Shown here piece after piece: positions 36,272 through 37,841 of a stretch of DNA of 64,000 bases (the stretch's first letter is position 1; each line of letters opens with the position of its first letter). Made by a program: the position numbers and the translations under genes. The stretch is from Sminthopsis crassicaudata (Eukaryota): contig NC_133623.1 in NCBI RefSeq assembly GCF_048593235.1, positions 1,860,001-1,924,000 on the forward strand, given 5' to 3'. The notes below the pieces were generated by a model. That model ran no database searches. It was not told the origin of the DNA and worked only from the letters and a program-made list of their open reading frames with translations.

Positions 36272-37003
36272 TGTTATGGGCCACAACTTGAAACAAGGTG
36301 CTAAGTCAATTGACTTAAGTCTAAGTCAGTGGAATTGATAGAGACAATGGTTGTTTAGCAGGGTGCTTAACAGTTCTCTAGTTCAGTACAGGTACTTAGT
36401 ACTTACTATAATTCCACAAGATTCACACTTATGGTGAGAGAGGATATAAACCCGGACAAAGTCAGCCAGAATCAGAACTAGGTTGGATCAGTCAGGATCT
36501 AAGATTCCTTTTCACCCCAACAATCCATCATTTAGCGATGGCGGCCTAACATTAGAACCAAGAGAGAACTCACTTGGGTCGATCCTAACATGTGACAACT
36601 GGCCGGGAATCCTCAGACTTGCCCAATGAGCAGTCATACAACCTCTGCTTGTGGACCTCTAGTGAGAGGGAACTGAGCTCCTCCACGGCCCGCTTCACTC
36701 GGGAATAGAGCACATTGTTAAGCTTATTGCCTTTTTATCGGCCTCTCCTGAATATCCACCCTGTTTTCTCCCTTGGTTCTTTGGGGCCAGACTCCACTGC
36801 AGCTCACAACAAATCAAATTGTCCTCGAAATACTTACATGCCTAGATCATCTCCACCAATATCTGTATCATCAGTTCCCTCAATCGACCCTCATACGTCA
36901 TGATCTCAAAGACTGGCTGTTCCAAAATGCTTGTCTAACCCCATGACCATTTCATCCTTCTGAAGCTCCCAGAGAATATTACATTTTAAAGAAGAATATT
37001 ACA
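36272..37003 (+). mobile_element. Solo ERV LTR with perfect 6-bp TSD; interior replaced by an inverted copy of downstream intron DNA
   Basis: TGttatggg...atattaCA; CTGGAG at 36266-36271 and 37004-37009; TATAAA at 36445-36450; 3' end matches the LTR at 9994-11089. Confidence 0.85.
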
Positions 37004-37674
37004 CTGGAGAACTTGACTGGTTATAAAGGACTGGGCTAAATCGAATGGGGTGCAATTCATCGCATTCACTTAGAGAGAGCTCAGCACTCAGTGGTCCCAA
37101 CCACCCTGGAGGGCCTCCTCCTTCCCTCTTGAATCCTAGGTCCCCCACATTCACCCATATGATTTGGGATGCATATGAAGCCTTCTCTTTAGAAGAGTTA
37201 GACAGAAGCATTTTGGGACAGCCATTGCTAGAGGGGGAGCACTTTGGGGGTCTTTGAGATCATGACATATGAGAGTCAGTTAAGGGAACTGAGAATATAG
37301 ATATCGGTGGAAATGATCTCGGCTTGTAAGTATTTCGAGGACGATTTGATTTGTTGTGAACTGCAGTGGAGTCTGGCCCCAGAGAACCAAGGGAGAAAAC
37401 AGGGTGGATATTCGGGAGAGGCCGATAAAAAGGCAAAAAGCTTAACAATTTGATCTGTTCCTGAGTGAAGCGGGCCATGGAGGAGCTCAGTTCCTGCTCA
37501 CTAGAGGCTCACGAGCAGAGGTTGTATGACTGCTCATTGGGCAAGTCATAGAGCTGAGGATTCCCGGCCAGTTAGGATGGAGCCAAGTGAGTTCTCTCTT
37601 GGTTCTCATATTAGGCGGCCATCATTTAGAGATCATTGGGGCGAAAAAGAATCTTAGATCCTGACTGATCTAAC
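36481..37674. repeat. Long inverted repeat: arms 36481-36940 and 37196-37674, spacer ~255 bp
   Basis: Manual reverse-complement alignment; the ~117-nt core (36721-36838 vs 37325-37441) has 6 mismatches; right arm carries an extra 27-nt block. Confidence 0.95.
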
Positions 37675-37841
37675 CCCCTCATTGTACAGATTAAGAAACT
37701 GAGGCTAGGAAAAGTGACTGGCTTATGCAAAGTAACTCCTTCGATGACTGTGGAAAAGTGAAAGGGCCTCCTTCCAGCTTTTAATAGTTTGTTTCCTTCC
37801 CCTCTATTTTCCTTCCCCTCTTTCCCTACCCTGTTGTCTAG

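What the first reader, a model, noticed from the sequence alone, without database searches (positions are those of the whole stretch)
36272..37841. LTR promoter fused directly to a ~450-bp inverted repeat: candidate self-promoted hairpin RNA unit just upstream of the H2 exon
Seen: a solo LTR (TG..CA, perfect TSD CTGGAG) keeps its 5' part with TATAAA at 36445-36450. Its interior from 36481 is replaced by a reverse-complement copy of 37196-37674. The right arm is the original because it holds old CR1/L3-like and MIR-like sequence that continues beyond the arm. The left arm begins ~30 nt after the TATA box, where a TSS would be expected, and the right arm ends ~170 nt before the H2 acceptor. The core is ~95% identical while the ends are more diverged, which hints at conversion between arms. 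Inference: LTR-driven or KCTD12b pre-mRNA transcripts would fold into a long dsRNA stem. It could be an ADAR substrate, an endo-siRNA source, or a structural modulator of H2-exon splicing. Loss of the LTR interior probably removed its own polyA signal, allowing read-through into the H2 exon (in-frame ATG at 38015 would give a 119-aa H2-only peptide).
Basis: partly seen in the sequence, partly recalled or inferred. Interest (0 to 1): 0.7.

Follow-up and report, generated by a model that had tools for sequence, protein, structure and literature searches.

The report
Copying scar inside an intronic LTR
A backwards copy of about 460 nearby bases replaced the middle of an old retroviral remnant in the last intron of a marsupial nerve-receptor gene, likely through a DNA copying or repair slip; the RNA is predicted to fold into a long hairpin, but that intron is spliced out of the mRNAs seen and nothing here shows the hairpin has a job.

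Summary
The structure is real. An LTR (36272-37003, target-site duplication CTGGAG) keeps its 5' ~210 bp with the TATA box and its last ~39 bp. Its interior and poly(A) signal are replaced by a reverse-complement copy of 37195-37675 (403 of 445 columns identical). Contigs of three independent samples bridge both junctions, so it is not misassembled. RNA contigs place it inside the last intron of the KCTD12b-like gene and splice across it in both isoforms; none covers the arms or starts at this LTR. The arms look neutral: 12 G-U versus 16 A-C mismatches, no reliable conserved core, and the copied arm is the most variable part of 3.2 kb. The internal ATG 38015 is a valine codon in a relative. 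Best reading: a long 1-4-3-2 template-switch / MMBIR-type templated insertion, about as old as the LTR, with two more local copying scars nearby. A second low-copy inverted copy turned up in 661 kb of background, and this scan has noted several such events in other genomes. Editing, small RNAs and an LTR start site could not be tested. Ordinary; low interest. The expressed H2 exon of this paralog is the more interesting by-product.

The parts
36266..36271 (+). Left target-site duplication CTGGAG
   Evidence: sequence
36272..36482 (+). 5' part of the LTR (U3 up to about the expected start site); high-copy family
   Evidence: 8.0-9.5% from its nearest copies
36302..36321 (+). About 20-bp insertion in U3 containing a 16-bp perfect palindrome; likely a short fold-back template switch (limits approximate)
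   Evidence: 20-column gap against other copies; exact 20-mer found once in the genome; 0 of 29 copies have it
36445..36450 (+). TATA box of the LTR
36481..36941 (-). Left arm: inverted copy of 37195-37675 replacing about 230-330 bp of LTR interior, including the poly(A) signal; 2-bp GG microhomology at the 5' junction
   Evidence: 5' junction bridged by contigs of X1, X4, X7 and 3' junction by X1, X4, X7
36942..36964 (.). About 23-nt junction filler of unknown source
   Evidence: no source in window or genome search; absent from 8 other LTR copies
36965..37003 (+). Last ~39 bp of the LTR, ending in CA
37004..37009 (+). Right target-site duplication CTGGAG
37066..37157 (+). Direct local copy shared with 35446-35519 (93% over the 58-bp core), found only at these two places; donor not determined
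37195..37675 (+). Right arm: donor sequence, single-copy decayed old repeats that run on past the arm's end
37781..37841 (+). Likely branch point (TTAAT), pyrimidine tract and AG acceptor, all outside the stem
   Evidence: motif scan; acceptor shown by RNA joints
37842..38374 (+). Terminal coding exon (H2-type C-terminus) of the KCTD12b-like gene; continues as 3' UTR
   Evidence: RNA contigs; open frame; two paralogous matches
35636..35715 (+). 81-nt coding exon (assembly lacks one base)
35832..35968 (+). 138-nt in-frame cassette exon (assembly lacks one base); included in X11 and X19, skipped in X12/X13

Best explanation
An LTR sits in the last intron of a KCTD12b-like gene, and its middle has been replaced by a backwards copy of sequence 190-670 bases downstream, likely in one error-prone replication or break-repair event; the pre-mRNA is predicted to fold into a ~450-bp stem that is spliced out with the intron and likely has no selected function. 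Steps. Shown: LTR integration with a 6-bp target-site duplication; loss of the LTR interior and poly(A) signal; inverted copy with switch-point order 1 (36480-36482), 4 (~36965), 3 (37195), 2 (37675); splicing across it in both isoforms. Inferred: the polymerase left the LTR at a 2-bp GG microhomology, copied the opposite strand for ~480 nt, added ~23 untraced bases and returned near the LTR's end; this happened early in the life of this LTR copy; the arms then drifted neutrally; the nascent stem is likely edited by ADAR as a by-product, like inverted repeats in other mammalian introns.
For: Geometry matches event type 1-4-3-2, which makes one inverted repeat and, with its mirror case, is 31% of high-confidence human-chimp events (PMC5453318 passages). 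It also matches the MMBIR signature: inverted insertion next to its template, junction microhomology, multi-template cases, found as germline variants (PMC8421209 passages). Junctions. Two more local copying scars lie within 2.3 kb. Age: arms differ by 9.4% (95% CI 6.9-12.5), the U3 remnant by 8.0-9.5% from its 29 nearest copies. A relative differs by about 0.21 per synonymous site in the next exon, so the copy is likely younger than that split, yet that relative splices the same exons. Neutral signature: 28 transitions and 14 transversions, G-U 12 vs A-C 16. Of 15 left-arm substitution variants, 7 break a Watson-Crick pair, 1 turns it to G-U, 5 restore one and 2 stay mismatched. Variant sites: 16 in 461 bp of left arm vs 12 in 1968 bp of flanks and spacer. 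Background: 2 low-copy inverted copies of 100 bp or more with spacer up to 2 kb in 661 kb, this one included.
Against: At ~480 nt the copied tract is far longer than the published short-range events (median 12, maximum 128; PMC7954356 passages). The 5' junction falls almost exactly at the LTR's expected start site, which I treat as chance or start-site fragility without proof. The element was present in all 4 samples laid, so it may be fixed. It fills 1195 of 1873 nt of an intron next to an alternatively spliced exon. 8 of the 20 arm variants listed restore pairing; I read these as ancestral alleles, but some conversion cannot be excluded. No raw RNA reads, small-RNA or CAGE data were available, so absence of function is not shown. 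The pre-event allele was not seen (no relative's genome).
Confidence: 0.8

Rival explanations
1. The hairpin is an unselected or co-opted modulator of splicing: by looping out most of the last intron it would shift cassette-exon inclusion or use of the H2-exon acceptor, and so the share of H2-bearing protein.
For: The stem spans 1195 of 1873 nt of the intron. The upstream cassette is alternatively spliced and has a weak donor (GTTTGT). Inverted Alus in one intron changed splicing of a flanking exon in RABL5 (PMC2533698 abstract and one section).
Against: The stem is 512 nt from the cassette donor and 166 nt from the acceptor, with branch point and pyrimidine tract outside it. In RABL5 the effect returned only under 68 nt. 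No exon lies between the arms. A relative that likely split before the copy arose uses the same exons. No sign of constraint on the stem.
Confidence: 0.1
2. The LTR's intact U3 and TATA box drive a self-contained hairpin RNA (endo-siRNA or dsRNA source, possibly reading on into the H2 exon).
For: TATA box at the family position, with the left arm starting where transcription would start. LTR poly(A) signal lost; next hexamer at 38652. Six perfect helices of 21-34 bp are predicted. Other copies of this LTR family occur in RNA contigs.
Against: No contig of X11, X12 or X13 covers the arms or joins this LTR to its arm; X19 shows only a low figure in the bin that holds the junction, which I read as overhang from other LTR copies. 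The arms are single-copy intron sequence, so siRNAs would have no mRNA target. There are 19 ATGs before the acceptor and 2 out-of-frame ATGs in the exon before 38015, which is Val in a relative. No Rfam match.
Confidence: 0.06
3. The 'solo LTR' is the remains of a whole provirus removed by a deletion joined through the templated inversion (5' part from the 5' LTR, last 39 bp from the 3' LTR), not a recombination-made solo LTR altered later. The hairpin would still be a neutral scar.
For: Both routes give the same sequence. The similar age of arms and LTR puts the event early, when a full provirus may still have been present.
Against: No internal proviral sequence remains to show it. The replaced length also fits a simple interior replacement of a 460-520-bp LTR.
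Confidence: 0.2
4. Assembly artefact.
For: The assembly has seven 1-bp indel differences from all 4 runs in 35338-36068.
Against: Contigs from three samples of three studies bridge both junctions with 31 or more bases on each side; the arms differ at 42 sites and 5 gaps.
Confidence: 0.01

Closest known systems
Template-switch mutation, four-point model type 1-4-3-2 (PMC5453318; PMC7954356; passages read)
   Same: Order of switch points; one inverted repeat made by copying nearby opposite-strand sequence while the sequence between points 1 and 4 is lost.
   Different: Copied tract ~480 nt against a median of 12 and maximum of 128 in the ape set; ~23-nt untraced filler; ancestral state inferred from LTR family copies, not from an ortholog.
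MMBIR-type templated insertions, MMB-TI (PMC8421209; passages read)
   Same: Inverted insertion close to its template, replacement of original sequence, short junction microhomology, extra junction bases, germline transmission.
   Different: That search was limited to templates within 100 bp and read-length inserts; here the template starts ~230 bp from the return point, and ~9% drift has blurred the junctions.
Intronic inverted-repeat dsRNA such as inverted Alus in RABL5 (PMC2533698; abstract and one section read)
   Same: Two complementary arms in one intron, predicted long stem, potential ADAR substrate, near an alternative exon.
   Different: Arms come from local copying, not two insertions; the stem lies downstream of the cassette and 166 nt from the next acceptor; editing and splicing effects untested.
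Hairpin endo-siRNA loci of mouse oocytes (recalled; no paper read)
   Same: Long inverted repeat next to a possible germline LTR promoter.
   Different: No small RNAs or start site shown; arms lack homology to any mRNA.

Membership tests
Template-switch / MMBIR templated inverted insertion | Insert is the reverse complement of nearby sequence | tested here: met
   403 of 445 columns, donor 190-670 bp downstream of the LTR end; single-copy in the genome search
Template-switch / MMBIR templated inverted insertion | Replication returns to the original template, losing the sequence between points 1 and 4 | tested here: met
   LTR resumes at 36965-36971; 229-334 bp lie between these points in most other copies
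Template-switch / MMBIR templated inverted insertion | Microhomology at the junctions | tested here: inconclusive
   2-bp GG at the 5' junction, which chance could give; ~23-nt filler at the 3' junction
Template-switch / MMBIR templated inverted insertion | Pre-event allele seen in an ortholog | not testable with these tools
   No relatives' genomes held; all 4 samples laid carry it
Short-range template switch as defined in PMC7954356 | Copied fragment within the published size range (maximum 128 nt) | tested here: not met
   ~480 nt; it works like one but is a long case
LTR of an endogenous retrovirus | TG..CA ends, short target-site duplication, dispersed family with TATA box and poly(A) signal | tested here: met
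   poly(A) signal lost in this copy
Hairpin endo-siRNA locus | Long stem with perfect helices of 21 bp or more | tested here: met
   predicted only: six Watson-Crick runs of 21-34 bp
Hairpin endo-siRNA locus | Stable hairpin transcript and 21-23-nt products from both arms | tested here: inconclusive
   0 of 4 RNA-type runs have contigs across the arms; contigs cannot show absence; no small-RNA data
ADAR-edited intronic inverted repeat | A-to-G clusters in RNA against matched DNA | not testable with these tools
   No raw reads; X7 and X9 run unspliced through the introns like DNA
Selected RNA structure | Wobble or compensatory bias and reduced variation in the stem | tested here: not met
   G-U 12 vs A-C 16, p=0.57; left arm more variable than flanks; no cross-species alignment was possible

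The most novel reading that the evidence does not exclude
One template-switch event turned an intronic LTR into a ready-made promoter-plus-hairpin unit: it kept U3 and the TATA box, placed a 460-bp stem at the start site and deleted the poly(A) signal. The unit now makes dsRNA or small RNAs in the germline, or tunes the share of H2-bearing KCTD12b and so GABA-B receptor desensitisation, in one marsupial lineage.
Probability: 0.07. Interest if true: 0.65.

Novelty: new member of a known kind. Interest (0 to 1): 0.2.

Why it matters
As it most likely stands, it is a clear, datable example of a long template-switch scar, readable because the LTR family supplies the 'before' state; that is of modest use to people who study mutation mechanisms. 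If the LTR does fire, it would show a promoter-plus-hairpin RNA gene born in a single mutation, beside an exon whose domain sets GABA-B receptor desensitisation in mouse (PMC8121548 passage).

Tried and rejected
Gene conversion between arms: five clustering statistics, four not significant, one p=0.04 uncorrected; not supported. Wobble bias on the sense strand: none. Misassembly: rejected. Editing: X7 and X9 were laid as possible RNA but behave like DNA (unspliced, no joints, many variants shared with DNA runs); no test was possible. Lack of RNA cover on the arms in X11, X12, X13 and X19 is not evidence of absence; X12 and X13 look like one data set filed twice. 8 of the 24 runs listed were laid; the other 16 were not. 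Source of the 23-nt filler: not found. Rfam: 0 matches at E up to 1. Same rearrangement in other LTR copies: 0 of 29 best-matching copies, taken from 40 scored of 2168 candidates, show a lengthened interior made of a local inverted copy; 3 of 29 had 77-84% inverted matches that I did not dissect, and one had an 867-bp interior without an inverted match. Retroviral capture of a read-through transcript: rejected, since it would give sense, not antisense, downstream sequence (inference). H2-only 119-aa peptide: frame is real, but the ATG is not first and not conserved. Pfam has no model hit for the terminal exon. Seddik et al. 2012 on KCTD H2 evolution was not held; searches for KCTD12b with marsupial or opossum gave nothing relevant. 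Earlier scan notes by place and by sequence: none.

Full report
Setting. The window is G000:C7:1860001-1924000 of a 3.24-Gb, 8-contig genome; C7 is 90 Mb, which I infer to be a marsupial X chromosome. An ORF at 19613-20461 carries BTB and KCTD8/12/16 H1 domains. The terminal exon's C-terminus has two paralogous matches elsewhere in the genome.

The observation. Self-alignment finds one single-copy inverted repeat in the window. The arms 36481-36939 and 37197-37675 match at 403 of 445 columns, with 42 mismatches and 5 gap events. The left arm lies inside an LTR, 36272-37003, flanked by CTGGAG. Other copies are about 460-520 bp, with a TATA box near position 154 and a poly(A) hexamer ~126 nt from the end. 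TATA was present in 26 of 29 and the hexamer in 24 of 29 best-matching copies (these are the top of 40 scored among 2168 candidates). Here LTR similarity ends at 36478-36482 and resumes at 36965-36971, so the interior and the hexamer are lost. The right arm is single-copy except for its last ~30 bp, where matches to old dispersed repeats begin and run past the arm's end; a sensitive search gave 4 weak matches, three or four of them crossing 37675. That, and the interrupted LTR, make the right arm the donor. The labels CR1/L3 and MIR are from recall.

It is not an artefact. Contigs of X1, X4 and X7 (three samples, three studies) bridge the 5' junction (36401-36645, 36430-36645, 36399-36653) and the 3' junction (36859-36994, 36859-37000, 36809-36994). 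X9 covers the 5' junction with only 27 bases on the LTR side.

Gene context. Both forms are open, 484 and 530 aa, when the two single bases missing from the assembly are read as N (one search had the first exon end one base off and its translation is void). The element therefore lies wholly in a last intron of 1873 or 2126 nt. The stem spans 1195 nt, starts 512 nt after the cassette donor and ends 166 nt before the acceptor; a TTAAT at 37781 and the pyrimidine tract are outside it. All four runs splice across it. None has a contig over the arms; contigs cannot prove absence, and intronic RNA is seldom assembled.

How it arose. Projected on the pre-event sequence, the switch points fall in the order 1 (36480-36482), 4 (~36965), 3 (37195), 2 (37675). 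This is type 1-4-3-2 of the four-point template-switch model, which makes one inverted repeat (PMC5453318, passages). It also fits the MMBIR signature of an inverted insertion near its template, with multi-template cases carried as germline variants (PMC8421209, passages). The 5' junction has a 2-bp GG microhomology and the 3' junction ~23 nt of untraced filler. The tract is long for the class: the ape set has median 12 and maximum 128 nt (PMC7954356, passages). Two more local copies lie close by: a ~20-bp palindromic insert in U3, unique in the genome, and a direct copy 35446-35519 / 37066-37157 found only at these two places. Whether they belong to the same event is unknown.

Age. The arms differ by 9.4% (95% CI 6.9-12.5). 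The U3 remnant differs by 8.0% from its nearest and 9.5% (median) from its 29 nearest copies, which differ among themselves by a median 8.7%. The copy thus arose early in this LTR's history (inference). The related organism of X19 differs at roughly 0.21 per synonymous and 0.02 per non-synonymous site in the terminal exon (33 listed differences, 4 more not shown), so it likely split before the copy arose, yet it uses the same exons.

Signs of function were sought and not found. On the sense strand 12 transitions leave G-U pairs and 16 leave A-C mismatches (p=0.57). The claimed conserved core is weak: four of five permutation tests gave p=0.09-0.51 and one p=0.04. Variant sites listed number 16 in 461 bp of left arm, 5 in 481 bp of right arm (p=0.014) and 12 in 1968 bp of flanks and spacer (p=7e-6); X7 alone gives 8 in 396 against 4 in 972 (p=0.007). 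Seven one-base indels shared by all runs and three sites within the LTR's multi-copy part were left out of these counts. Contigs collapse heterozygous sites and can cross-map between arms, so the size of the excess is uncertain, but it points away from constraint. Of 15 left-arm substitutions, 7 break a pair, 1 makes G-U, 5 restore a pair and 2 stay mismatched; 3 of 5 right-arm variants restore a pair. Restoring alleles are expected where the reference carries a derived allele, though conversion is not excluded. ATG 38015 opens a 119-aa frame but follows two out-of-frame ATGs in the exon and is GTC in the relative. The RABL5 precedent for splicing control by an intronic stem needed a distance under 68 nt (PMC2533698, abstract and section 11).

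What the RNA would do. Folding predicts a long stem (-858 kcal/mol; six perfect helices of 21-34 bp), which follows directly from 90% complementarity. From general knowledge of mammalian introns, such a stem is likely edited by ADAR while nascent and discarded with the intron. This was not testable: only contigs were served, and the two possible RNA runs that cover the arms behave like DNA.

How common. In 661 kb (window, 200 kb of flanks, 40 scattered 10-kb pieces) there were 4 inverted matches of 100 bp or more with spacer up to 2 kb: two between dispersed repeats and two low-copy, this one and L083 (209 bp, 97.6%). The sample is small and includes the finding itself, but it suggests many such copies per genome. 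A survey counted 5.1 million inverted duplicates of 10 bp or more in opossum (PMC5398296, abstract and section 12). This scan's notes hold several similar events in other genomes (unchecked leads).

Literature limits. Searches for KCTD12b with H2 domain, marsupial or opossum and for marsupial hairpin endo-siRNAs showed nothing on this locus in the listings; some searches were seen as listings apart from the papers named above. No supplements were read. Seddik et al. 2012 could not be read and may already describe H2 retention in non-rodent KCTD12b.

Verdict. A real, well-preserved templated inverted duplication inside an LTR, most likely a neutral scar (0.8). A splicing effect (0.1) or an LTR-driven hairpin RNA (0.06) is not excluded but has no support here. 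New member of a known kind; interest 0.2.

Noticed in passing
window 19613-20453, 35636-35715, 35832-35968, 37842-38374: This KCTD12b-like gene splices to an intact H2-type terminal exon in RNA of three studies and two organisms, with an in-frame 46-codon cassette, and the exon is under purifying selection (pS ~0.21, pN ~0.02). Mouse KCTD12 and 12b are described as lacking H2 (PMC8121548). The genome has three H2-type exons. The unspliced H1 exon also ends in an in-frame stop just inside the intron, so an H2-less form is possible. More interesting than the hairpin; orthology not tested.
   Followed up: partly
window 35338, 35669, 35756, 35819, 35835, 36013, 36068: Seven 1-bp indels where all four runs laid differ from the assembly; two fall in coding exons and make them look frameshifted. 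Likely assembly errors.
   Followed up: yes
window 36481-36941: The copied arm shows three to six times more variant sites than the donor arm and flanks, including a haplotype with 6 differences in 129 bp seen at half depth in two samples. Unexplained; may be partly a contig artefact.
   Followed up: partly
window 31016-32986: Tandem duplication of ~990 bp at 96% identity, single-copy in the pieces compared, in the long intron of the same gene.
   Followed up: no
L083 1341-1549 and 2607-2815 (G000:C7 near 25.0 Mb): A young low-copy inverted duplication, 209 bp at 97.6%, spacer 1058 bp.
   Followed up: partly
L034 684-5143; L036 6102-7943; L042 4525-10000: Further local direct duplications (1383 bp at 90%; 178 bp at 85%) and a long ~150-bp-period tandem array downstream of the window.
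   Followed up: no
window 12432-12860 and 39491-39927: A 437-bp direct repeat at 95% identity, 27 kb apart.
   Followed up: no
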